A DNA stretch of 35,122 nucleotides from IMG/VR virus record IMGVR_UViG_2713896901_000010. One strand, 5' to 3'. Shown here piece after piece: positions 1 through 30,157 of this stretch. Source of the stretch: a virus. Its lineage: Duplodnaviria > Heunggongvirae > Uroviricota > Caudoviricetes. Positions within the stretch are counted from its first letter, which is position 1; every line of letters starts with the position of its first letter. Under the pieces are notes generated by a model. That model worked only from the letters and a program-made list of their open reading frames with translations, did not search any database and was not told the origin of the DNA. Position numbers and translations under genes: made by a program.

Positions 1-258
1 ATGCAGCAGTATCACTATCCACTGGAAGACGGATTTACCGAAAGGATTCACACGCCGGGAGGCGTCAGGTCACTGGTGGAGGGATCGCACTTGATGAAAT
101 TACTCCGGGATCTCAATAAGGATGGATTTAATGTCGATGGCCCACTTGCCGAACTGACTGCACTGATTAACTACGTCACCAGCTCACAGATGTCTATGCA
201 GGATCTGCAAACACATCTCGACTATTGTGCCGAACAATTACGAAAACAAACCAGATAA
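1..258 (+). CDS. C-terminal fragment of an antirepressor-family protein (5' end upstream of window)
   Basis: Frame open from window edge to TAA 256-258; its ~80 aa share ~45% identity with the C-terminal module of the two complete antirepressor genes (576-1226, 2008-2952). Confidence 0.5.
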   Translation: MQQYHYPLEDGFTERIHTPGGVRSLVEGSHLMKLLRDLNKDGFNVDGPLAELTALINYVTSSQMSMQDLQTHLDYCAEQLRKQTR

Positions 259-261
259 GGT

Positions 262-290
262 TTGAAATTACCAAGTGGAGTGCTTATATT
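262..290 (+). promoter_or_regulatory. sigma70-like promoter TTGAAA-N17-TATATT
   Basis: -35 TTGAAA 262-267, 17-bp spacer, -10 TATATT 285-290; last T of -10 is first T of operator 290-304. Confidence 0.5.
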
Positions 291-304
291 TACCTTTGCG
301 GTAA
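290..304. promoter_or_regulatory. operator dyad TTACC-N5-GGTAA (site A)
   Basis: Perfect 5+5 inverted half-sites ttacc tttgc ggtaa. Confidence 0.6.
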
Positions 305-394
305 ATTTACATCGCACTCCTCTTGTGCCATAGTAATCGGGCACTGGCAAAATCCAGTGTCGGGATTGGTCTCCCGGATTACTAAGTGGCGCAT

Positions 395-417
395 ACCACG
401 CCAGACGTGGTTTTTTT
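395..417 (+). terminator. rho-independent terminator
   Basis: Stem accacg/cgtggt with 5-nt loop followed by T7 run 411-417. Confidence 0.6.
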
Positions 418-575
418 ATGCGTATAGCACAGTCATGCCAGAATTATGGTGGGCTGAATGGGGGTCCGAAAGGACGCCGGTACCACTTAGGCCGGTAAGA
501 CCAACTCCGTTCAGTTCACCACCATCTGATTGGTCTCAGCGGTGGTGATGTAATTCGCTAAGTGGAGACGCCATA

Positions 576-1226
576 ATGAACGCTCAACTCATCCCCGTAT
601 TCAACGGCACTATATCCAACGAAACCGCTCTTCTCGTTAATGCCCGTGATTTACACACTTTCCTCGATGTGGGTAAGCGATTTGCTTCGTGGATTGTCGA
701 ACGAATTGCTGAATATGGTTTCGTTGAAAATCAAGACTTTATGATTATTTCCCAAGTTCGGGAAAAAATAGGCAGAGGCCGTCCTGCAAAAGACTACCAC
801 CTCACCCTCGATACAGCCAAAGAGCTGGCGATGGTCGAGCGTAACGAAAAAGGTCGTCAGGTACGACGCTACTTCATTGAATGCGAGAAACGTTTAAGAC
901 AACAAGAAACAAAAGTGGAGAAGGTCTTGTCAGGCTTCATGCCCGCCATTATGGAGGCGATCAAGCTGGAAGACAAAAAAGAATACAGCGCCCCGCTGAA
1001 GCCCGGCTACCGCAGTCTGATTCATTCTCCGTCTGGTGTTCTCGGCCTGACGGAGAACTCACTGCTGATGAATCTGCTGAACCAGTTACAGGACGACGGG
1101 CACGACGTATCGGGCGCGGCGGCGGAGCTGACAACCATGTTCTGCTACATCGTCGGTGTGAGCAAATGCCTGCGTGATATCCAGACACACGCGGAGTACA
1201 TCAACGACAAGGCAGGATTCTTCTGA
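576..1226 (+). CDS. phage antirepressor, KilAC-type N-terminal domain plus shared C-terminal module
   Basis: ATG 576 with GGAG 9 nt upstream; N-terminal ...DYHLTLDTAKELAMVERNEKGRQVRRYFIECEKR matches the KilA-C/ANT antirepressor signature; last 80 aa identical to the C-terminus of the 2008-2952 product. Confidence 0.8.
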   Translation: MNAQLIPVFNGTISNETALLVNARDLHTFLDVGKRFASWIVERIAEYGFVENQDFMIISQVREKIGRGRPAKDYHLTLDTAKELAMVERNEKGRQVRRYFIECEKRLRQQETKVEKVLSGFMPAIMEAIKLEDKKEYSAPLKPGYRSLIHSPSGVLGLTENSLLMNLLNQLQDDGHDVSGAAAELTTMFCYIVGVSKCLRDIQTHAEYINDKAGFF

Positions 1227-1248
1227 CGGCGGCGGCACAGGGATGTGC
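994..1248. repeat. inverted repeat arm 1 (~255 bp, ~95% identical to reverse complement of 1985-2241)
   Basis: Direct comparison: only a handful of synonymous third-position differences plus one 3-5 nt indel just after the stop codon. Confidence 0.8.
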
Positions 1249-1260
1249 CTTTAAATAATT
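1234..1260 (+). terminator. weak hairpin terminator after antirepressor gene
   Basis: ggcaca-ggga-tgtgcc hairpin followed by tttaaataatt; lies inside the inverted repeat. Confidence 0.35.
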
Positions 1261-1290
1261 CTGTACAGATTGCAGGTGAATAGCGTACTA

Positions 1291-1305
1291 TTACCCCAAA
1301 GGTAA
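1291..1305. promoter_or_regulatory. operator dyad TTACC-N5-GGTAA (site B)
   Basis: ttacc ccaaa ggtaa; abuts a -10-like TACTAT (1286-1291), 14 bp upstream of ATG 1319. Confidence 0.6.
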
Positions 1306-1318
1306 ACCGAGAGTTTAC

Positions 1319-1534
1319 ATGAGGGGGGGAAGCATGGAACTGAACATCATCACATTAATGAAAGCGCTTATTGGCGGTGCAGGAAGTGGCTTTGCTCTTT
1401 CTGGCGGGCTGTCTATGATCATACCTACTTTCACAGTGACGACTGGCGTTGCCTACCTTTTTGCCATTACTGGCGGTCTGGCTATGGCAGGTACTTACAT
1501 TTTAAAAAAAATGAGTTCCGGTAGTGCAGACTGA
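1319..1534 (+). CDS. small glycine-zipper membrane peptide (66-71 aa), function unknown
   Basis: ATG 1319 or ATG 1334 preceded by GAGGGGGGG; product MELNIITLMKALIGG/AGSGFALSGGLSMIIPTFTVTTGVAYLFAITGGLAMAGTYILKK is hydrophobic with repeated small-xxx-small motifs; AT-rich. Confidence 0.55.
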   Translation: MRGGSMELNIITLMKALIGGAGSGFALSGGLSMIIPTFTVTTGVAYLFAITGGLAMAGTYILKKMSSGSAD

Positions 1535-1871
1535 GATCGTACAAGAATCACATTGGTACAATCCACAGACCGCTCAGGAGCTGGCGATCTTTTATTGTAT
1601 CCTTTGCATTGTGTATATAGTAATCCACCTGATATGGGATTTTCTCTCAAAAGAGACTGGTAGGTTTTCTGTTGTTAACCTTCAGTACAAACTGAATGAG
1701 GTATATTCATCAACCACATTCGCAACGAGTGGTTTTTTCCTCGTTATGTTATGCGACATGAATAACCCTCTTAGAACATCAGATGCGTTTATCATACCGC
1801 TTATCTTGGCAATGCTTACTGGATTCATGATATCAATATCCGCAATAGCGCCAAAAAAAGTTAACATTTAA
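1524..1871 (+). CDS. predicted 3-TM membrane protein (start uncertain, GTG 1524)
   Basis: Overlaps stop of upstream gene; three hydrophobic segments; no ATG before residue 75, so the start is unresolved; stop TAA 1869-1871 sits at the foot of a strong terminator. Confidence 0.4.
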   Translation: MQTEIVQESHWYNPQTAQELAIFYCILCIVYIVIHLIWDFLSKETGRFSVVNLQYKLNEVYSSTTFATSGFFLVMLCDMNNPLRTSDAFIIPLILAMLTGFMISISAIAPKKVNI

Positions 1872-1893
1872 GCCCGCACTGCGGGCTTTTTTG
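1871..1893 (+). terminator. rho-independent terminator
   Basis: agcccgc-act-gcgggct hairpin followed by TTTTTT. Confidence 0.75.
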
Positions 1894-1930
1894 TGTCTGC
1901 GGATTCCCGCCCGGGCGGCGGTGGCATTCG

Positions 1931-1956
1931 TTAAAAACAAGGCCGCGAAAGCGGCC
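1931..1956 (-). terminator. rho-independent terminator for the minus-strand ant gene
   Basis: On minus strand GGCCGC-tttc-GCGGCC followed by TTGTTTTT. Confidence 0.6.
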
Positions 1957-1957
1957 T

Positions 1958-1969
1958 GTGACATGTCAC
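1958..1969. repeat. 12-bp perfect palindrome GTGACATGTCAC (copy 1 of 2)
   Basis: Identical 12-mer recurs at 22609-22620; both copies sit just 5' of a minus-strand terminator. Confidence 0.5.
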
Positions 1970-1984
1970 GATAGTTCCGTTTTG

Positions 1985-2241
1985 CACATCCCTGTGCCGC
2001 CGTTCTGTCAGAAGAACCCTGCCTTGTCGTTGATGTACTCCGCGTGGGTCTGGATATCACGCAGGCACTTGCTCACACCGACGATGTAGCAGAACATGGT
2101 GGTCAGCTCCGCCGCCGCGCCCGATACATCGTGCCCGTCGTCCTGTAACTGGTTAAGCAGATTCATCAGCAGTGAGTTCTCCGTCAGGCCGAGAACACCC
2201 GACGGCGAATGAATCAGACTGCGGTAGCCGGGCTTCAGCGG
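1985..2241. repeat. inverted repeat arm 2 (partner of 994-1248)
   Basis: Reverse complement matches 994-1248 at ~95%. Confidence 0.8.
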
Positions 2242-2952
2242 ATAACCATAACATTTTGTCTGTGTTTTAATTGCCTCACGAAGCGCATCTAACATCTTGA
2301 CTGCCACTTCATCATTCTCTGATGCAGATCCAGCAGGGAGATGCTCCCCTTCAAGCGGAACCCGAGCAACAAGAGACAACGCTTCGGCGAATTGATCTTC
2401 ATCAATTTCTTTGTACGAACAGCCAAAATGAGATTTCAGTGACGACCACATGGTGATCATCGCCTTAGCCTGTTTTTCTTTTGGCAGAGACTGACCGCGA
2501 CTCATGACGAGTTGTTTAATGGCTTCCTGCTGTTCAGTGGTTATTTTACCCGGCAGCGCCTTTTTAGCTTTGCGTGGGTTAACCACATGGCCTTTAGTCC
2601 AGTACTCGTAGAGCACATCGTCACACTCTTCCTGATACTGGATTACCTTGTCGCGGATTTCAGGGCGGACTTTGTTAGGGCTGATGGTTTGCAACCAGCC
2701 AGCAAGTTTGCGAAGTGCCAAACAAATAATCTCACGGCGCTGTTCATCCCCAGGAAGCTGCATTGTGATTTTCACAATGCAGGTTTTAAACCGCTGCTTC
2801 ATTTTCGTAAACTGTGAAGCCCAATCCATACCCATGCCTTCAACGATAGGTTTCATTGGGGTGTACGGTTCTCCGTTGTGATTGACAACATAAAGTTCTG
2901 CGCCGTGGAATGGCACGTTGATAGTAGATACCGCTGTTGCTATACTCGCCAT
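2008..2952 (-). CDS. ant: antirepressor Ant (P22 Ant-like N-terminus plus shared C-terminal module)
   Basis: ATG 2952 with AGGA upstream; N-terminus ...INVPFHGAELYVVNHNGEPYTPMKPIVEGMG resembles P22 Ant ...SYVPFNGQQVRTVLIDGEPWF; sits downstream of arc as in P22 immI. Confidence 0.8.
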   Translation of the reverse strand: MASIATAVSTINVPFHGAELYVVNHNGEPYTPMKPIVEGMGMDWASQFTKMKQRFKTCIVKITMQLPGDEQRREIICLALRKLAGWLQTISPNKVRPEIRDKVIQYQEECDDVLYEYWTKGHVVNPRKAKKALPGKITTEQQEAIKQLVMSRGQSLPKEKQAKAMITMWSSLKSHFGCSYKEIDEDQFAEALSLVARVPLEGEHLPAGSASENDEVAVKMLDALREAIKTQTKCYGYPLKPGYRSLIHSPSGVLGLTENSLLMNLLNQLQDDGHDVSGAAAELTTMFCYIVGVSKCLRDIQTHAEYINDKAGFF

Positions 2953-3024
2953 GTCGTTAATTCCTATACGTAGTTTTACGATACTGAAGCCCTGACGGTC
3001 TGGCCACCGTTGGGCTTCGCTGTT

Positions 3025-3192
3025 TTATGCCACGCTATTCTTCTCACCAGTGAGTCCATACACTTTCCTCAGCTGATAGATAATCTCTGTATTGAACTTT
3101 CGGCATTCTTTTTCGCCATTTCTTTCAATAGCTAACTTCACATCGTCCGGAAAACGAACTCGTCGTTGACACATCTCTTTTGCTTTTTGCAT
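3025..3192 (-). CDS. arc: Arc-like ribbon-helix-helix repressor (55 aa)
   Basis: Internal ATG 3192 with AAGGAG at 7-nt spacing; RRVRFPDDVKLAIERNGEKECRKFNTEIIYQL parallels P22 Arc RWPREVLDLVRKVAEENGRSVNSEIYQRV. Confidence 0.75.
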   Translation of the reverse strand: MQKAKEMCQRRVRFPDDVKLAIERNGEKECRKFNTEIIYQLRKVYGLTGEKNSVA

Positions 3193-3206
3193 TTCATATC
3201 TCCTTG

Positions 3207-3266
3207 GCCCCACCGTGGGGCAAAACAATTGTCACACCGTGCGTCATTGATGTCAAGCACACGGTG
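3207..3266. promoter_or_regulatory. divergent arc/mnt control region with three spaced CACCGTG/CACGGTG heptamers
   Basis: caccgtg 3211-3217 (inside palindrome gccccaccgtggggc 3207-3221), caccgtg 3235-3241, cacggtg 3260-3266; spacing 24 and 25 bp. Confidence 0.5.
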
Positions 3267-3312
3267 AGGCATACTTCAATCATTGCAAGTAACTCAATAT
3301 TTGGTGAAGAAC

Positions 3313-3744
3313 ATGAGCAGAGAAGATCCACAACTAAGGATCAGACTTCCCGTTGAAGTAAAAGAAAAAATAGAAATTTCTGCAAAAGCCAATAAGCGAT
3401 CAATGAACGCTGAAATAGTACAACGTCTTGACACCAGCTTTCTGAAAGATATTCATGAAGATGACGTAATTTCTGCTTATGAAGCAAAAATTATTGCAAA
3501 CAATGCACGGCATGAAATATCAAATATTATTTTCAAAAGAACTTTTAATGAAATCAATAAGAAAATAACACTTGGACATACAAGTTTTTATATAAACCTT
3601 AATGACCTTGAACTGGAATCACTTGCAGATAATGATTACCAGATCATCTTTGAAAAAACATTTAATAAGCTCAATGAACTAGGTTACATCATCTGTGAAA
3701 ACTCATGGGATGCAGATGGTTTTGGAATTGAAATACCTGAATAG
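3313..3744 (+). CDS. mnt: Mnt-like RHH repressor with ~60-aa extra C-terminal extension
   Basis: ATG 3313 (table start 3283 is TTG); MSREDPQLRIRLPVEVKEKIEISAKANKRSMNAEIVQRL closely parallels P22 Mnt MARDDPHFNFRMPMEVREKLKFRAEANGRSMNSELLQIV; divergent from arc-ant as in P22. Confidence 0.8.
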   Translation: MSREDPQLRIRLPVEVKEKIEISAKANKRSMNAEIVQRLDTSFLKDIHEDDVISAYEAKIIANNARHEISNIIFKRTFNEINKKITLGHTSFYINLNDLELESLADNDYQIIFEKTFNKLNELGYIICENSWDADGFGIEIPE

Positions 3745-3786
3745 GAAGAACAAAAGGCGTGTACATATTACACGTCTTTAATACAA

Positions 3787-4398
3787 TTGAAAAACGCCAC
3801 ATTACTGATGTATGTTACAACAAGGAGCGATATTTTGAAAACCATATCTATATTAAAGGTTGCATTAGGCGTCGCTATTATTTTGACTCTCTCAATATTG
3901 TTTTATTTTTACCACAAAAAAACTGCTATTGCTCTTGATGGTCACGCGGCAAACTCATTTTTCTCAGAGTACATAGTGCCGCTATCAGGAAGCGGTATAA
4001 CAAATAAATATACTGACTATGACATCAAATATGGAATTGATGATGGGGAGACTATTGCATTACATGTAATCATTAAAAACCTAATGACAGTAAATAAAAA
4101 TACAGACTTCAACGATAAAAATACAATACATCACAACAACAGCAAAACATTAATTTCTTATAGTAGCAACATCTATACGGATAAATACCTAAAATACATC
4201 TCAGAAGATACAATAAAAGCAACCAGCGAAAAGTTAAAAAACATATATTGTGCATCCGGCAGTTTTCACAAATTATCGCCGCAAGAGCGTTTATTCTACG
4301 AAGCAAGAAAACAACGTAAGTCAATAATATTCCATTATTATGCTGATTCAGGGGAGTCACTCATATTTAATATTGGGGTTTCCCCTGAATCATGCTAA
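3787..4398 (+). CDS. membrane-anchored protein of unknown function at the sieA position
   Basis: Most likely start is TTG 3835 (AAGGAG 3822-3827, 7-nt spacer), alternative ATG 3808; one N-terminal TM helix then an Asn/Lys/Tyr-rich domain; very AT-rich. Confidence 0.55.
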   Translation: MKNATLLMYVTTRSDILKTISILKVALGVAIILTLSILFYFYHKKTAIALDGHAANSFFSEYIVPLSGSGITNKYTDYDIKYGIDDGETIALHVIIKNLMTVNKNTDFNDKNTIHHNNSKTLISYSSNIYTDKYLKYISEDTIKATSEKLKNIYCASGSFHKLSPQERLFYEARKQRKSIIFHYYADSGESLIFNIGVSPESC

Positions 4399-4409
4399 AG
4401 GCGTTTAAC

Positions 4410-7400
4410 TCACCGCATCACCGGATCCACCTGGTTTATTAGTGGCGCAATCCAGAACAGGTTATTGCCTGGTATCAGGGTTCGGACATTATGCACAATA
4501 CGATCACCGGCATCACCATTCAACACTCCTGCGGTCACATCAATGATGCTATCCGCAAGACCAAATGACGGTCCGAATAGAGATCCTACGAATCCACGAC
4601 TGGCATACCTAGACTGTGTGCCAGTGCCAAATAAAGCCCCCAGCCCAACAGCACCACCAGTAGCCTTTTCAGCCATGTTGTTATATTCCATCAATGGCCC
4701 AAGAATACCGGATCTATCTATACCCTCAAGCACCAGCTTCTCTGGTGACCAGTCAACATTTTTCCCTTTCGATGCTTCTTTTAGCGCATAGACCAGTGAG
4801 CCAAGAGCAATCTGAAATGCAGTGCCATAATAAAATTGCGCAGTTCCTTCCTGTAACCCACCAAGTAGCGCACGGTTGTATGAAGCCGTTGTGAATGATT
4901 TAAACTGAAATATCGTTCGCCCCATTGGAGTACTCGCCCATAAAGGTGTGTCACCAATACCGGGGGTGATGATAGTGTTATTAACGTCTTTCAGAACCGC
5001 TGACTGGAATACTCCGGCAACGTACTGATCGTCCCATTTATCAAAGTTACCAATGTGCCATCCATCAATTACCTCACCATGTTTCTCGAACTCACTGCGA
5101 ATACGCGCAGCCATATTGTCGTTGATACCGAGTTTTGCCATGCGACGTGCAGAAAACGCACCAGACAAAATACCGTCTGACGTGAGCATTCCGTTCATGG
5201 ATTTGTTTATGTCATTAAATCGATCCATGAGTGTCAGCTTGCCGAAGGCATCAGTAATTCGCTCCATTCCTGCTTCGACTGCTGTTGTCCTGGAAGAACT
5301 GTCAACAAGATCACCAATTGCACGAGAACGTGAATGTAGTACAGCTTCCAATCCAATCCCCATCTTCAACATCTCTTCTTTGCTGGCCTTAAATGCCGGT
5401 GATTGGGATATCTGAGAAGCATAGCCTTTCATGGTGTTACGGAAACCATTAACCATAACCCCTCTGGCCAGATCTGGAATAGCTGATACTGTCATTCCAC
5501 CGAGTTTGGTCGTGAAGTTCACATCCCGCAGAAAAGCGCCAGCACGAACAAAAAACGAAGACGGATCATCAGGCATACCATATGTACCAACAAGACGATC
5601 GCGTAATGCTGTTATGTCTCTGAGATCATTTGCTCTTGATTTTGAAAGTCTGGACTGTTCTTTCCGTAATTCCTTTTCGTACTTTCGCATTAATGAATCG
5701 AGTTTACCCTGAGGAACAACTTCACCATTGCTCTCATAACGTGCTTTCAGATTTGCCACACTTTCGTCATATTTCGCCTTTATTTTTTCAGGCACTTCCC
5801 GTAACAGACTGTCATATTCGTCCTCAATTAATTGCAGACGCTCAGTCATAGTTCGTTTGCCAAATGTTCTCGTCAACTCAATTTCTGCTGCCGCTTCACG
5901 GATATGACGTTGCAGCACGTAATTCACATCACTTTCAAGATAATCCCTGATAAGACTATCAGGAACATTTAATGTTCTTTCTTTCGTACTACCTGCGGCT
6001 TTTACAGAAAATACGCTGACAAAATCCTGTGGAACCTTAGCACCAGTAATTTTATTAATTACGATATCCGCTGCAATTTCAGCATCCTCAGGATCCAGTG
6101 TTTTATTTCCTCTCGACCACCAGCCAACCAAAATACGTCGAAATTTATCGCGTTCACTGATTATTTTTCCAACTTTATATATGCGTGGGAAATAGCTTGC
6201 CTGGCCTAATGCTTTCAGTTCTTCATCTGGCGGCAATAAACCAAGCTTTTGCATTTCAACTTTCACCCGATTTAATACAGTTCGCATCGCCTGCGCCGTT
6301 TCCTGAACAACAGGATTAGCATGCACATCACCGCTTCGCATAGCATTCCCAACCTGCTGACGAAATGAATCAAAACTCATGTCACCACCATCAGCTTTAT
6401 ACTTTGCGTATGCCTGTTTATTTCCGACAACAACAGCAGCTTCTTCACGCTGCCATCCACGTGTACGGGTTTCTACAGCTACCGGTGTTTCAATCCCCCT
6501 TTCATTTCCTTTAAGGGTGAAATTATTTTCGGCTAACTCCAGCGTTGTTTTTCGCACCGTCTTGGACGGAGACTCCATTAACCTTGTCAAAGGAGTAAGA
6601 TAGCTCCCTGCTTTCCATGCAGCCTTTCCAACCCACCCACCGGAAACAGGGGTTAAATCATCCAGAGTCGCTGTATCAATTTTCATAGCACCAACACTAC
6701 CACCATCGGAAAGCGAAGCGGCAGCCCTGTCAGTCGCTGATGTAATGCTCATATTATCAAGAGCATCAGCAACCTCACGTGTGGCTGCAGCCCGGACGGA
6801 TGGCGAAAGCGCAACACCAGCACTGGCAAACACGCCGCTCATCATCGCACCCGCTGCAACGTGAGCGGCACTTTCACCCCATGAGCGTGTTATTTGCTGA
6901 TTATTCAGTACAACCTCGCTTAATGCTGTACCGGCAGCACCAATCGCAATCTGTGAGCCAATACGCGCCAGTGCCCCTCCTTGAGCACCGGGAATAAACA
7001 TTGACGCAACAGTAACCGGATCCATTCCCGCAGCAATACTGGCAAGGGTTCCAACTACGCCAGCATCAGACAATAAACGTCTGTCTTCATTTTCATCATC
7101 TATCTGCTGCTTAATCCACGCCGTTTCCTCTGGCGATCGGGAATCTGCAAATTTCGCCCCCCAGTATTCATAACCGTGCAACTCATTTTTATCAGCATAT
7201 GGGTTATAACCCTCGACCGGTTCAAACTGTCTGGCTGGGCGGAAAAAACCAGACAGAATATTGTTCTGTCGCATTGCAGCCCCCCATACGGAAGGCTCAG
7301 GTGGCAATGGCTCAGGATTAGCCCCTTCCGGAAGGGCAACATCAAACCCAGTTTGTTCCGGCAAAACATTACCTGACGGGATCAGTCCGTTATTAAGATC

Positions 7401-19784: not shown

Positions 19785-19861
19785 GTGGCATTAGCTCAGT
19801 TGGACAGAGCAACCGCCTTCTAAGCGGTTGGTCGCAGGTTCGAATCCTGCATGCCACGCCA
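19785..19861 (+). tRNA. tRNA-Arg (anticodon UCU), phage-encoded
   Basis: Manual cloverleaf: acceptor GTGGCAT/ATGCCAC, U8, D-stem GCTC/GAGC with GG in loop, anticodon stem ACCGC/GCGGT, loop CUUCUAA, T-stem GCAGG/CCTGC with TTCGAAT loop, discriminator G, encoded CCA; differs from E. coli argU as I recall it. Confidence 0.9.
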
Positions 19862-29320: not shown

Positions 29321-29383
29321 TCACCCATAAGGTAACAAAAATCAAGGATAGTTACCTATGAGGTGCATTTACCTGTTGGGTAA
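29321..29383. promoter_or_regulatory. OR-like operator cluster (three dyads)
   Basis: 29321-29335 tcacc cataa ggtaa (9/10); 29352-29366 ttacc tatga ggtgc (8/10); 29369-29383 ttacc tgttg ggtaa (10/10). Confidence 0.6.
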
Positions 29384-29438: not shown

Positions 29439-30023
29439 ATGAAAAGTATCCAGGACGTCCGCAGGCAAAATCTCAACGACTTGATCGACCGTGAATTCAA
29501 TGGTGTTCAGACGCGGATGGCAGAAAAACTTGGAACTCAGGCAAATCTGGTAAACCGCTGGGCTCTTGGAAAGAAGGTTATCGGCGACCAGGTTGCGCGA
29601 AAAATTGAAGCTGCCGCCAATAAACCCCGTAACTGGCTTGATATCGATCGCTCGCTTTCTCAGGAAGGTTTTCAGCCTGTCGGCCCAAGCGACATTGGTC
29701 AGCTGGCGGCTCACAACCTGGAACGCTGGATGAGCGAAAGCCGCGACCTTTCAACACAGGGAAAACTTCACCGCGCATCCGGCGTCGCCCAGGTGACAAT
29801 CAGCCGCCTGTTAAACAATGAGGTCAGCGTTTCCATTTCCACCTTGGAGAATGTTGCATCCGCATTCGGGCGTCACGGCTATGAATTACTGATTCACCCG
29901 CACGACCCTGCGACCATCAACTATGACCGCTCGCGCTACGCATTGTTACCCGAAACCGAGAAAGCAAAGATCGAAAGTTACATTGAATTTGTCATCAATC
30001 AGAACGAAAAAAACAAACAATAA
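29439..30023 (+). CDS. CI-like repressor with two HTH motifs and no S24 peptidase domain (194 aa)
   Basis: N-terminal XRE-type HTH (MAEKLGTQANLVNRW) plus second HTH (SGVAQVTISRLLNNEVSVSISTLENVA); no Ser/Lys autoproteolysis domain visible. Confidence 0.7.
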   Translation: MKSIQDVRRQNLNDLIDREFNGVQTRMAEKLGTQANLVNRWALGKKVIGDQVARKIEAAANKPRNWLDIDRSLSQEGFQPVGPSDIGQLAAHNLERWMSESRDLSTQGKLHRASGVAQVTISRLLNNEVSVSISTLENVASAFGRHGYELLIHPHDPATINYDRSRYALLPETEKAKIESYIEFVINQNEKNKQ

Positions 30024-30114: not shown

Positions 30115-30143
30115 TTGACATCAAACCAGATACGCATAATTAT
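30115..30143 (+). promoter_or_regulatory. pL-like promoter TTGACA-N17-AATTAT
   Basis: Consensus -35 at 30115-30120; -10 at 30138-30143 whose last T is the first base of operator H2. Confidence 0.55.
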
Positions 30144-30157
30144 TACCTCAACGGTAA
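30143..30157. promoter_or_regulatory. operator dyad TTACC-N5-GGTAA (site H2)
   Basis: ttacc tcaac ggtaa. Confidence 0.6.

What the first reader, a model, noticed from the sequence alone, without database searches (positions are those of the whole stretch)
1..2952. Three antirepressor-family genes sharing one C-terminal module but carrying different N-terminal domains and different control regions
The partial gene ending at 258, the KilAC-type gene 576-1226 and the P22-Ant-like gene 2008-2952 all end in a homologous ~80-aa domain (PLxxGxxxxIHxPxGV...LMxLL...DGxDV...AEL...Y...DIQTH). Two copies are identical and the third about 45% identical. One is under Arc/Mnt-type control and one sits behind a promoter with the TTACC dyad. 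Together with a repressor lacking an autocleavage domain, this suggests induction through several separately wired antirepressors, with the shared module as the likely repressor-contact or oligomerisation element.
Basis: partly seen in the sequence, partly recalled or inferred. Interest (0 to 1): 0.5.

Follow-up and report, generated by a model that had tools for sequence, protein, structure and literature searches.

The report
Three differently wired copies of one antirepressor domain
An E. coli prophage of the epsilon15/phiV10 type carries the crystallised repressor-binding antirepressor domain of Salmonella phage SPC32H three times. One copy stands alone and two are fused to other proteins, and each sits behind a different classic control circuit (SOS/LexA, P1-type antisense RNA, P22-type Mnt/Arc/sar). 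It is a clear but not revolutionary example of modular rewiring of prophage induction.

Summary

- ORF 1-258 is a complete 85-aa gene, not a partial one. It is the orthologue of SPC32H Ant (PDB 5D50 chain E, E=2e-46).
- Gene 576-1226 has an AntA N-domain, not KilAC.
- Gene 2008-2952 lies on the minus strand. Its residues 1-203 are about 90% identical to canonical P22-type Ant, and the P22_AR_C domain is replaced by the module.

**The shared module**
- It is the whole SPC32H-type Ant domain (PHROG 450, no Pfam family).
- The repressor at 29439-30023 is the SPC32H Rep orthologue.

**Wiring**
- Small ant: a consensus LexA box in all six E. coli relatives; the site lies upstream of the window.
- Middle gene: a promoter with a TTACC-N5-GGTAA dyad, then an IsrK-like RNA and a P1-type C4 antisense RNA. 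The C4 loops pair with two target pairs, one of which covers the ribosome-binding site.
- P22-type gene: Mnt, Arc and sar RNA.

**Geometry of the fused copies**
- They form a 256-bp inverted repeat around variable cargo.
- The cargo is inverted in 1 of 28 E. coli genomes.

**Published support**
- Overexpressing the Bro-N::module protein of phage ZX5, whose Rep is identical, reduced lysogeny.

**Verdict:** a new variant of known kinds, of moderate interest.

The parts
1..258 (+). Complete small antirepressor gene (85 aa, A-type module). It is the orthologue of SPC32H Ant, epsilon15 gp19 and phiV10 p24.
   Evidence: PDB 5D50_E at E=2e-46 over residues 2-84. PHROG 450 at 2.6e-47. Annotated orthologues are also 258 nt. 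The promoter lies upstream of the window. Relatives carry a LexA box at -37 and a dyad at about -91.
262..304 (+). Sigma-70-like promoter TTGAAA-17-TATATT (262-290) abutting the dyad TTACCTTTGCGGTAA (290-304), the presumed Rep operator.
   Evidence: The early-left promoter at 30115-30157 has the same layout of -10 hexamer followed by the dyad.
341..417 (+). IsrK-like leader RNA. It holds the C4 target pair a1 (366-372, TTGGTCT) and b1 (382-389, CTAAGTGG) and an intrinsic terminator (395-411 plus a T-run).
   Evidence: Rfam RF01394 at 65.5 bits (gathering score 50). Terminator scan. Complementarity to C4.
442..526 (+). C4-type antisense RNA (P1/P7 immI type). Single-stranded a' is AGACCAA (498-504) and b' is CCACTTAG (483-490).
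   Evidence: Rfam RF01695 at 61.2 bits (gathering score 45). Fold and complementarity. Loops and targets covary across three cassette types.
530..565 (+). Downstream C4 targets a2 (530-536) and b2 (558-565). Target b2 overlaps the Shine-Dalgarno sequence (AAGTGGAG) of the gene starting at 576.
576..1226 (+). AntA::module fusion gene (216 aa). AntA domain is aa 21-90 and the B-type module about aa 135-216.
   Evidence: Pfam PF08346 at 8e-28. PHROG 450 at 4.6e-36 on aa 133-214. Alignment to the small Ant.
993..1248 (.). Left arm of the inverted repeat. It covers the module coding sequence plus about 22 nt of 3' flank.
   Evidence: Arms of 253-258 nt at 95-99% identity are present in five relatives.
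1249..1983 (+). Variable cargo between the arms. Contents: dyad 1291-1305, two small membrane-protein ORFs (1319-1534 and 1524-1871), and back-to-back terminators (1870-1888 on +, 1957-1940 on -).
   Evidence: Relatives carry different cargo (YafO-like, DUF4760, others). The cargo is inverted between L005 and L006.
1984..2241 (.). Right arm of the inverted repeat.
2008..2952 (-). P22-type Ant N-terminal two-thirds fused to the B-type module (314 aa). P22_AR_N is aa 12-123, the swap point follows aa 203, and the module is aa 233-314.
   Evidence: PF10547 at 9.6e-45. PDB 5D50_E at 1.4e-13 on aa 233-309. 89% identity to a canonical PF10547+PF10548 Ant over aligned aa 1-224, with similarity ending after VPLEGE (aa 203). 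No relation between the module and P22_AR_C.
2954..3021 (+). sar-type antisense RNA opposite the 5' leader and ribosome-binding site of the minus-strand ant. It has its own promoter-like site (2918-2946) and terminator (2997-3016).
   Evidence: Rfam RF00262 at 45.2 bits (gathering score 43)..
3025..3192 (-). Arc-like small ribbon-helix-helix gene (55 aa from MQKAKEM...).
   Evidence: PHROG 228 'Arc-like repressor' at 2.3e-5. The orthologue in TL-2011b is annotated Arc-like. No Pfam hit.
3228..3256 (-). Pant-like promoter TTGACA-17-GACAAT in the divergent arc/mnt control region.
3313..3744 (+). Mnt-like regulator with an N-terminal Arc-family domain. The listed ORF runs from 3283; relatives annotate a 432-nt gene.
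   Evidence: PF03869 at 1.2e-14..
29439..30023 (+). Rep, the non-cleavable repressor. It is the orthologue of SPC32H Rep and the presumed common target.
   Evidence: PDB 5D50_A at 4e-42 over the full length and 5D4Z at 4e-20 on aa 89-190. HTH families only. 100% identical to the Rep of phiV10 and ZX5.
29321..29383 (.). Two dyads in the cro-rep intergenic region. One overlaps the cro-side promoter-like site.

Best explanation
The window is an epsilon15/phiV10-like (Uetakevirus) E. coli prophage. Its lysogeny is held by an SPC32H-type, non-cleavable Rep. I infer that Rep binds TTACC-N5-GGTAA operators.

The shared module is the complete SPC32H-type antirepressor domain. In SPC32H this domain forms a tetramer that binds Rep dimers and strips Rep from DNA. 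That part is shown for SPC32H and inferred here.

The domain occurs three times.
1. Stand-alone ancestral Ant (1-258). In relatives its promoter carries a consensus LexA box, so it is the SOS induction arm.
2. Fused to an AntA domain (576-1226). It sits behind a promoter with a dyad at +1, followed by a P1/P7-immI-type leader: an IsrK-like terminated RNA carrying decoy sites a1/b1, then a C4 antisense RNA, then sites a2/b2 covering the ribosome-binding site. Inferred behaviour: the gene is off in lysogens, through Rep at the promoter and C4 at the RBS. It comes on once Rep is removed or on fresh infection, which would give positive feedback or anti-immunity.
3. Fused to the first 203 residues of a P22-type Ant in place of P22_AR_C (2008-2952, minus strand). 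It lies in a P22-type immI cassette (Mnt, Arc, sar). Inferred behaviour: silent under Mnt, with a transient burst on infection.

The clean swap points suggest that the C-terminal domain sets repressor specificity. The N-domains (AntA, Bro-N, ORF6N, Rha, P22_AR_N) and their control cassettes appear interchangeable.

Because the two fused genes converge, their modules form a 256-bp inverted repeat. The repeat undergoes gene conversion and occasional inversion, and it flanks a hot spot for moron cargo.
For: Homology to the solved complex
- Small Ant matches 5D50_E at 2e-46. The fused module matches at 1.4e-13. Rep matches 5D50_A at 4e-42.

Co-occurrence
- The module is in 32 phage records and the small Ant in 35. 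Rep homologues are in 37 records (36 near full length), essentially the same epsilon15-like set.
- The family is very small: 63 clusters among 1.84 billion representatives. Most are stand-alone. The fusions are always C-terminal, to Bro-N, AntA, Rha or ORF6N.

Selection
- The arms differ at 8 sites, all synonymous. There are 30 variable sites across 12 arms, with at most one amino-acid difference between the two arms of any genome.

Domain swap
- 89% identity to canonical PF10547+PF10548 Ants up to about aa 203, then unrelated.

Control elements
- Rfam hits above gathering score for isrK, C4 and sar.
- These are conserved with the genes in seven E. coli relatives and absent from SPC32H.
- C4 loops and both target pairs covary across three cassette types, and b2 always overlaps the SD.
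- LexA box at -37 in all six E. coli relatives and in SPC32H. None near the fusion genes.

Dyad
- 9 exact and 12 near-exact sites in the window, and 18 in SPC32H, against 0.04-0.7 expected. They cluster at the rep-cro gap and at early promoters.

Experiment in the literature
- ZX5 ORF4 is Bro-N plus a module 77/78 identical to this one, in a phage whose Rep is 100% identical. Overexpression lowered the prophage titre from 1e9 to 1e6 and rep transcripts by 75% (PMC9782041).
Against: - No direct binding data exist for the B-type module, which is only 42-44% identical to the crystallised type.
- The ZX5 experiment is a crude overexpression and does not separate the N-domain from the module.
- The dyad-Rep link is inferred from position and enrichment. 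I could not read the SPC32H papers to confirm the operator sequence.
- The small ant promoter is outside the window.
- The small Ant is 87% identical between the E. coli and Salmonella phages, while their Reps are only 42% identical. It is therefore unclear what constrains Ant and which paralogue is matched to which Rep.
- The AlphaFold model of the fusion is of low confidence in the module (pLDDT 55-72).
Confidence: 0.7

Rival explanations
1. The fused module serves only as a tetramerisation domain for DNA-binding N-domains (AntA, Bro-N, P22_AR_N). On this view the two large proteins are transcription regulators in their own right and do not inhibit Rep.
For: - SPC32H Ant is a tetramer (as I recall Kim et al. 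2016; PMC9638917 also describes it so).
- The N-domain of the model weakly resembles the DNA-binding folds of Dachshund/Ski and Mbp1-APSES.
- The B-type module is only 42-44% identical to the A-type.
Against: - Overexpression of ZX5 Bro-N::module shifts the phage toward lysis with an identical Rep (PMC9782041).
- The module occurs only in genomes that carry the Rep family.
- The control cassettes are those that govern antirepressors in P1 and P22.
Confidence: 0.12
2. The B-type module targets the Rep of other, heteroimmune epsilon15-like prophages or superinfecting phages. The fusions would then be weapons or cross-talk devices rather than part of this prophage's own switch.
For: - There are two clearly diverged module types in one genome.
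- The A-type is universal (35 of 35 records) and the B-type is accessory.
- P22 Ant is known to act on several repressors, and Gifsy antirepressors act in trans (PMC7380047).
- The c4 specificity types differ between cassettes, as in P1/P7 heteroimmunity.
Against: - Rep is 98.5-100% identical across all sequenced E. coli phages of this group, so there is little heteroimmune diversity to target in E. coli.
- The ZX5 result was obtained against the phage's own Rep.
Confidence: 0.12
3. The inverted repeat is a programmed invertible switch, like the Gin/Cin/Hin segments, that flips the cargo between two promoters.
For: - A 256-bp inverted repeat is conserved in every relative.
- The same cargo is found in both orientations in two E. 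coli genomes.
Against: - No invertase gene lies in or near the region.
- Among 5,426 complete E. coli genomes the forward junction is in 27 and the inverted junction in 1.
- The arms are long coding sequences rather than short crossover sites.
- The arm polymorphism pattern fits sporadic homologous exchange.
Confidence: 0.04
4. The two fusions are non-functional debris of illegitimate recombination in a mosaic region.
For: - In phiV10 the middle gene is frameshifted inside the module and the P22-type gene is absent.
- The region is an accretion relative to SPC32H.
Against: - Intact ORFs with good ribosome-binding sites.
- Strong purifying selection.
- About 535 of 5,426 E. coli genomes carry the segment, typically with two arms.
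- The regulatory RNAs are intact and covarying.
Confidence: 0.03

Closest known systems
SPC32H Rep-Ant antirepression system (Kim & Ryu 2013, J Virol; Kim et al. 2016, PNAS; PDB 5D50 and 5D4Z)
   Same: - The small gene 1-258 is 87% identical to SPC32H Ant, and Rep is a full-length orthologue.
- Same genome position, next to the tailspike gene.
- Same LexA box and dyad upstream in relatives.
- Same dyad enrichment across the genome.
   Different: - SPC32H has one stand-alone Ant and no fusions, no C4, IsrK or sar RNAs, and no Mnt/Arc.
- Here the domain is triplicated, and two copies are C-terminal parts of larger proteins under other circuits.
- Rep is only 42% identical.
P22 immI region (mnt, arc, sar, ant)
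   Same: - P22_AR_N domain plus middle region, about 90% identical to canonical P22-type Ants.
- sar RNA above the Rfam gathering score.
- Arc-family Mnt-like and Arc-like genes in the same divergent layout.
   Different: - The P22_AR_C domain (PF10548) is replaced by the SPC32H-type module.
- The Mnt-like protein is about 143 aa, against 83 aa in P22 (my recollection).
- The host phage is an epsilon15-like podovirus whose repressor is unrelated to C2.
P1/P7 immI (P51/Op51, c4 antisense RNA, icd, ant1/2). This comparison rests on my knowledge of Citron & Schuster 1990 and Heinrich et al. 1995.
   Same: - A promoter carrying the primary repressor's operator.
- A C4 RNA embedded in the leader.
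- Two loop sequences complementary to an upstream and a downstream target pair.
- The downstream pair occludes a ribosome-binding site.
- Specificity variants, as between P1 and P7.
   Different: - b2 covers the RBS of the antirepressor gene itself. There is no clear icd-like upstream ORF. Only a 37-codon ORF overlaps C4, and ZX5 annotates it as an 'ash family protein'.
- The antirepressor is AntA, Bro-N or ORF6N fused to the module.
Gifsy-1 isrK-orf45-anrP locus (PMC4825925)
   Same: - An IsrK-family terminated leader RNA, followed by a processed RNA or short ORF and then an antirepressor-like gene.
- In Gifsy-1, read-through of the IsrK terminator feeds the antirepressor.
   Different: - In Gifsy-1 the output is AnrP acting on AntQ.
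- No SPC32H-type module or Rep is involved there, as far as tested.
- Here the C4 pairing scheme is explicit.
vB_EcoP_ZX5 ORF4 'anti-repressor' (PMC9782041)
   Same: - Same locus and same IsrK/C4 leader.
- Module 77/78 identical and Rep 100% identical.
- It is the only experimental test of a fused form.
   Different: - ZX5 has a Bro-N N-domain and lacks the P22-type third copy.
- The authors did not link ORF4 to SPC32H Ant, and they left the small ant as 'hypothetical'.

Membership tests
SPC32H-type Ant (PDB 5D50 chain E; PHROG 450) | Sequence homology across the whole ~80-aa domain | tested here: met
   All three ORFs match. PDB hits at 2e-46 and 1.4e-13. PHROG 450 at 2.6e-47, 4.6e-36 and 2.5e-35.
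SPC32H-type Ant (PDB 5D50 chain E; PHROG 450) | A cognate SPC32H-type Rep encoded in the same genome | tested here: met
   Rep at 29439-30023 matches 5D50_A at 4e-42. The two families co-occur across phage records.
SPC32H-type Ant (PDB 5D50 chain E; PHROG 450) | Small stand-alone protein of about 86 aa | tested here: not met
   Met for 1-258 (85 aa). Not met for 576-1226 (216 aa) or 2008-2952 (314 aa), where the domain is a C-terminal fusion.
SPC32H-type Ant (PDB 5D50 chain E; PHROG 450) | LexA-box promoter (SOS control) | tested here: inconclusive
   The region upstream of 1-258 is outside the window. All six E. coli relatives and SPC32H have CTGT-N8-ACAG at about -37. No LexA box lies near the two fusion genes.
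SPC32H-type Ant (PDB 5D50 chain E; PHROG 450) | Tetramer that binds Rep and releases it from DNA | not testable with these tools
   Needs biochemistry or a multimer prediction. The monomer model is of low confidence.
P22 immI antirepressor cassette | P22_AR_N domain (PF10547) | tested here: met
   E 9.6e-45 on aa 12-123.
P22 immI antirepressor cassette | P22_AR_C domain (PF10548) | tested here: not met
   No hit. Similarity to a canonical Ant ends at aa 203. hhalign of the module against a canonical Ant gives probability 0.2%.
P22 immI antirepressor cassette | sar antisense RNA opposite the ant leader | tested here: met
   RF00262 at 45.2 bits against a gathering score of 43, at 2954-3021. Also found in four relatives.
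P22 immI antirepressor cassette | Arc and Mnt ribbon-helix-helix regulators in divergent arrangement | tested here: met
   Mnt-like ORF has PF03869 at 1.2e-14. The Arc-like ORF has only a weak hit (PHROG 228, 2.3e-5; no Pfam).
P1/P7 immI c4 antisense control | C4 RNA | tested here: met
   RF01695 at 61.2 bits against a gathering score of 45, at 442-526.
P1/P7 immI c4 antisense control | Two C4 loops complementary to an upstream and a downstream target pair, the latter occluding an RBS | tested here: met
   Exact 7-8-nt complementarities at 366/382 and 530/558. These are compensated in two other cassette types.
P1/P7 immI c4 antisense control | Operon promoter controlled by the primary repressor | tested here: inconclusive
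   The dyad abuts the -10 hexamer. Binding of the dyad by Rep is inferred and was not shown.
P1/P7 immI c4 antisense control | icd-like ORF translationally coupled to ant | tested here: inconclusive
   Only a 37-codon ORF (435-548) overlaps C4, and it ends 28 nt before the ATG at 576 (sequence).
   The Pfam scan gives only AntA, PF08346.
Site-specific invertible segment (Gin/Cin/Hin type) | Adjacent invertase gene and frequent inversion | tested here: not met
   No recombinase was identified among the principal ORFs of 1-4400; nine were scanned against Pfam and PHROGs. The inverted junction is in 1 genome and the forward junction in 27.

The most novel reading that the evidence does not exclude
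All three proteins are active inhibitors of the same Rep. The prophage would then run a three-input antirepressor hub. One structurally defined Rep-binding and tetramerising domain has been plugged into the SOS (LexA), P1-type (repressor operator plus c4 antisense RNA) and P22-type (Mnt/Arc/sar) circuits. The clean swap points would show that the C-terminal domains of the large Ant, AntA and Bro antirepressors are exchangeable repressor-specificity adaptors. The Rep-controlled middle copy would give positive feedback that makes induction irreversible. The identical fused modules could also co-assemble into mixed tetramers.
Probability: 0.45. Interest if true: 0.6.

Novelty: new variant of a known kind. 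Interest (0 to 1): 0.48.

Why it matters
- The function of the large 'Ant/AntA/Bro-N/Rha' phage antirepressors is poorly understood at the domain level. Here the specificity-conferring part can be assigned by homology to a solved repressor-antirepressor complex, and natural domain swaps mark its boundaries.
- The locus also shows three textbook control systems for antirepressors co-opted side by side onto one repressor. It is a tractable system for asking how a prophage combines SOS induction, feedback and superinfection anti-immunity.
- Roughly 10% of complete E. coli genomes carry the fused module. Several database records still name the small Ant 'hypothetical protein', and PHROG 450 is listed as 'unknown function'. 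Both annotations can be corrected.

Tried and rejected
- **Primary SPC32H papers.** They could not be read by DOI or PMC id. Rep-contact residues and the published operator sequence could therefore not be checked. Statements about the tetramer and the binding mode rest on my recollection and on PMC9638917.
- **Pfam on the module.** Nothing above noise; DUF724 at 17 bits is far below its cutoff.
- **Word-indexed homologue search with the 82-aa module.** It returned only short proteins. The exhaustive HMMER search was needed to see the fusions.
- **Structure.** The AlphaFold2 model of the 314-aa fusion has mean pLDDT 66 and pTM 0.36. Foldseek against the PDB gave no hit at E<=0.001. It showed only a weak resemblance of the N-domain to Dachshund/Ski/APSES DNA-binding folds, and 5D50 was not among the 50 matches listed. 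Neither result carries weight in the argument.
- **Homology of P22_AR_C to the module.** Rejected.
- **Programmed inversion switch.** Rejected on junction frequency and the absence of an invertase.
- **LexA control of the fusion genes.** Rejected.
- **Trp_leader hit at 1801-1894.** It scores 21.6 bits against a gathering score of 41 and is noise; the sequence is a terminator.

Full report
**What is in the sequence**

The region holds three ORFs that end in a common module.
- 1-258 (+), 85 aa.
- 576-1226 (+), 216 aa.
- 2008-2952 (-), 314 aa.

The last 78 residues of the second and third ORFs are identical. The first ORF is 42-44% identical to them over 72-74 residues.

The two large genes converge, so their modules are the arms of an inverted repeat. 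The repeat spans 993-1248 and 1984-2241. It has 235 nt at 97% identity plus a 19-nt perfect stretch beyond the stop codons, and 735 nt lie between the arms. All eight coding differences between the arms are synonymous.

Three details are wrong.
- 1-258 is not a gene fragment. The annotated orthologues in phiV10, TL-2011b and several E. coli chromosomes are exactly 258 nt.
- The N-domain of 576-1226 is AntA (PF08346, E 8e-28), not KilAC.
- 2008-2952 is on the minus strand.

**What the module is**

The 85-aa protein matches PDB 5D50 chain E, 'Anti-repressor protein', 86 aa, at E=2e-46 over residues 2-84. Residues 233-309 of the 314-aa protein match the same chain at 1.4e-13.

The repressor at 29439-30023 matches 5D50 chain A, 'Repressor', over its full length at 4e-42. 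It matches 5D4Z, the Rep C-terminal domain, at 4e-20. 5D50 is the Rep-Ant complex of Salmonella phage SPC32H, and the SPC32H record annotates the same genes as ant and rep.

The module is thus the entire SPC32H-type antirepressor. It has no Pfam family. In PHROGs it is family 450, labelled 'unknown function'.

I could not obtain the two primary papers. [quoted passage not shown] A later paper that was readable describes it the same way (PMC9638917). The same source supports LexA control of ant and the lack of Rep autocleavage only indirectly. Pfam finds only HTH families in Rep here.

**Phage context and distribution**

The window is an epsilon15/phiV10-like (Uetakevirus) prophage, and its nearest sequenced phage is TL-2011b.

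Counts among 50,697 phage records:
- The B-type module is in 32 records.
- The small A-type Ant is in 35.
- Rep homologues are in 37, of which 36 are near full length.

These are essentially the same set of epsilon15-like phages of Escherichia, Salmonella, Klebsiella and Enterobacter.

Copy number differs by host. Salmonella members, including SPC32H and epsilon15, have one copy, the small Ant. Most E. coli members have two. TL-2011b and HEMP4 have three, like this window.

In SPC32H the small ant is followed directly by structural genes. The stretch from about 259 to 4400 in the window is therefore an accretion at that spot.

An exhaustive HMMER search of 1.84 billion cluster representatives found only 63 clusters at E<=1e-3. 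Most are stand-alone proteins of 80-95 aa. Where the domain is fused it is always C-terminal, behind Bro-N, AntA, Phage_pRha or ORF6N domains.

In six E. coli relatives the middle gene carries Bro-N, AntA or ORF6N in front of a near-identical module.

About 535 of 5,426 complete E. coli genomes match the arm/P22-type segment, with a median of two places per genome.

**The P22-type fusion is a clean domain swap**

The aligned residues 1-224 of the 314-aa protein are 89% identical to a canonical 309-aa Ant, P0144, that has P22_AR_N plus P22_AR_C. Other canonical Ants are 88-96% identical over 65-71% of the query. Similarity stops after VPLEGE, at aa 203. P22_AR_C shows no relation to the module (hhalign probability 0.2%).

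This suggests that the C-terminal domain is the exchangeable, repressor-specific part of these proteins. That is my inference.

The N-domain of an AlphaFold model weakly resembles Dachshund/Ski and Mbp1-APSES DNA-binding folds. The model has mean pLDDT 66 and the best fold-search E-value is 0.05, so I give this little weight.

**Three different control regions**

*(i) Small ant.* Its upstream region is cut off by the window edge. All six E. coli relatives have a consensus LexA box, CTGT-N8-ACAG, 37 nt before the ATG. Three of them also have an exact TTACC-N5-GGTAA dyad at about -91, and the other three have a one-mismatch version (GGTGA). SPC32H has the same pair of sites.

*(ii) Middle gene.*
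- A good promoter-like site, TTGAAA-17-TATATT at 262-290, abuts the dyad at 290-304.
- The 270-nt leader contains an isrK-family RNA at 341-417 (65.5 bits, gathering score 50). This RNA includes an intrinsic terminator.
- It also contains a C4 antisense RNA at 442-526 (61.2 bits, gathering score 45).
- Two single-stranded stretches of the C4 fold are each exactly complementary to two sites. AGACCAA pairs with an upstream site at 366-372 and a downstream site at 530-536. CCACTTAG pairs with an upstream site at 382-389 and a downstream site at 558-565.
- The last of these overlaps the Shine-Dalgarno sequence of the ATG at 576.

This is the architecture of the P1/P7 immI operon as I know it from the literature.

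The comparative evidence is strong. The Bro-N cassette (TL-2011b, ZX5) and the ORF6N cassette use different loop sequences, ACGCCAA with CCTTTTAG or CCTACTAG. In each case both target pairs carry the matching changes, and the downstream b site still covers the SD.

isrK and C4 are present in all seven E. coli relatives examined and absent from SPC32H.

The homologous Gifsy-1 isrK locus likewise feeds an antirepressor-like gene through terminator read-through (PMC4825925).

*(iii) P22-type gene.* The following elements reproduce P22 immI.
- A sar RNA hit lies antisense to its leader at 2954-3021 (45.2 bits, gathering score 43).
- An Arc-like 55-aa ORF lies at 3025-3192 (weak hit, PHROG 228 at 2.3e-5).
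- A Pant-like promoter lies at 3256-3228.
- A divergent Mnt-like gene with an Arc-family domain lies at 3313-3744 (E 1.2e-14).

No LexA box lies near either fusion gene.

**The dyad**

TTACC-N5-GGTAA occurs 9 times exactly and 12 times with at most one mismatch in the window, against 0.04 and 0.67 expected. Its positions include:
- the cro-rep gap, where one copy overlaps the cro-side promoter-like site;
- directly after the -10 hexamer of the early-left promoter-like site at 30115-30143;
- other intergenic sites.

SPC32H has 18 such sites. Three are in its rep-cro gap and one lies upstream of ant. I infer that the dyad is the Rep (and Cro) operator. This is not shown here.

**Proposed mechanism**

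Shown for SPC32H and inferred here: DNA damage removes LexA, the small Ant is made, it binds Rep, and Rep leaves its operators.

Inferred from the anatomy for the middle fusion: in a lysogen it is doubly off, through Rep at its promoter and C4 at its RBS. It switches on once Rep is removed or on fresh infection. The terminated IsrK-like RNA, carrying a1 and b1, may act as a decoy for C4. This would give positive feedback or anti-immunity.

Inferred for the P22-type fusion: Mnt holds it off, and it gives a burst on infection, as in P22.

One published experiment bears on the fused form. ZX5 ORF4 is a Bro-N protein whose module is 77/78 identical to this one, in a phage whose Rep is 100% identical. 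Overexpression lowered the prophage titre from 1e9 to 1e6 and rep transcripts by 75% (PMC9782041; identity checks). That paper does not mention SPC32H, and it leaves the small ant annotated as hypothetical.

**The inverted repeat**

Arms of 253-258 nt at 95-99% identity exist in all five relatives that have both fusion genes.

Across 12 arms from six genomes there are 30 variable sites, and the two arms of any one genome differ by at most one amino acid. The arms do not group by position: middle-gene arms are no closer to one another than to P22-type arms. Some variants are shared only by the two arms of one genome. This pattern fits gene conversion plus purifying selection.

The segment between the arms is a cargo hot spot.
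- Here it holds two small membrane proteins.
- Elsewhere it holds a YafO-like toxin, a DUF4760 protein and others.

The same cargo lies in opposite orientation in two E. coli genomes whose flanks are colinear (99% over 1,579 nt). Among complete genomes the forward junction is found in 27 and the inverted one in a single genome. No invertase gene was identified nearby. I read this as occasional homologous recombination, not a programmed switch.

**Open points**

- The small Ant is 87% identical between the E. coli and Salmonella phages although their Reps are only 42% identical. I cannot say which paralogue is matched to which Rep surface. The rival readings are 'tetramerisation only' and 'directed at foreign Reps', and both remain possible at low probability.
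- An 84-aa protein in the databases has an A-type N-terminal half and a B-type C-terminal half (P0014). The two module types therefore recombine.

**Comparison and verdict**

Every component belongs to a known kind: the SPC32H Ant/Rep pair, P22 immI, P1 immI c4, and Gifsy-1 IsrK. I did not find the following described in the searchable literature.
- The triplication of the solved Ant domain.
- Its fusion to AntA, Bro-N, ORF6N and P22-type N-domains with replacement of P22_AR_C.
- The side-by-side use of three control systems on one repressor.

I rate the finding a new variant of known kinds, of moderate interest. It is useful mainly as a natural experiment that assigns the repressor-specificity role to the C-terminal domain of large antirepressors.

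Noticed in passing
window 290, 1291, 19448, 22498, 22516, 26975, 27037, 28984, 29321, 29369, 30081, 30143 (15-nt sites): TTACC-N5-GGTAA occurs 12 times with at most one mismatch, against 0.67 expected. The sites are scattered over early, late and accessory regions. SPC32H has 18. This looks like a scattered-operator regulon, reminiscent of the P1 C1 repressor.
   Followed up: partly
window 435-548 (+): A 37-codon ORF overlaps the C4 RNA. Its equivalent in phage ZX5 is annotated 'ash family protein', and Gifsy-1 has orf45/STnc1160 at the same place. It may be a misannotated RNA gene or a true coupling ORF.
   Followed up: partly
L001, L004, L005, L008 and window 442-565: There are three C4 specificity types. 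Their loop and target sequences change in a compensating way, and each type travels with a different N-domain cassette (AntA, Bro-N, ORF6N). This resembles P1/P7 heteroimmunity.
   Followed up: yes
window 1-258 versus 29439-30023, compared with SPC32H (L009): The small Ant is 87% identical to SPC32H Ant, but Rep is only 42% identical to SPC32H Rep. The antirepressor is far more conserved than its target. This is unexplained.
   Followed up: partly
window 1249-1983: The cargo between the repeat arms holds two small predicted membrane proteins (PHROG 13406 and 36716, unknown function). A dyad precedes them and back-to-back terminators follow. Other genomes carry YafO-like toxin, DUF4760 or other genes at this spot.
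   Followed up: partly
L002 (phiV10) 4571-5250: The phiV10 middle gene is frameshifted inside the module, and the P22-type third gene with its Arc/Mnt cassette is absent.
   Followed up: partly
protein P0014 (84 aa, metagenome/Logan): A stand-alone protein whose N-terminal half is A-type and whose C-terminal half is B-type. It indicates recombination between the two module types.
   Followed up: no
window 3313-3744 and 3787-4398: The Mnt-like protein has about 90 extra C-terminal residues compared with P22 Mnt (PHROG 1388, unknown function). The adjacent 203-aa ORF (PHROG 8033) is of unknown function.
   Followed up: no
window 19785-19861 (+): A tRNA-Arg (anticodon tct) lies among the late genes. 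SPC32H has one at the equivalent position.
   Followed up: no
L003 3780-4508 (-) and L001 3280-4368: Some relatives carry an extra minus-strand gene inserted between the small ant and the IsrK/C4 leader.
   Followed up: no
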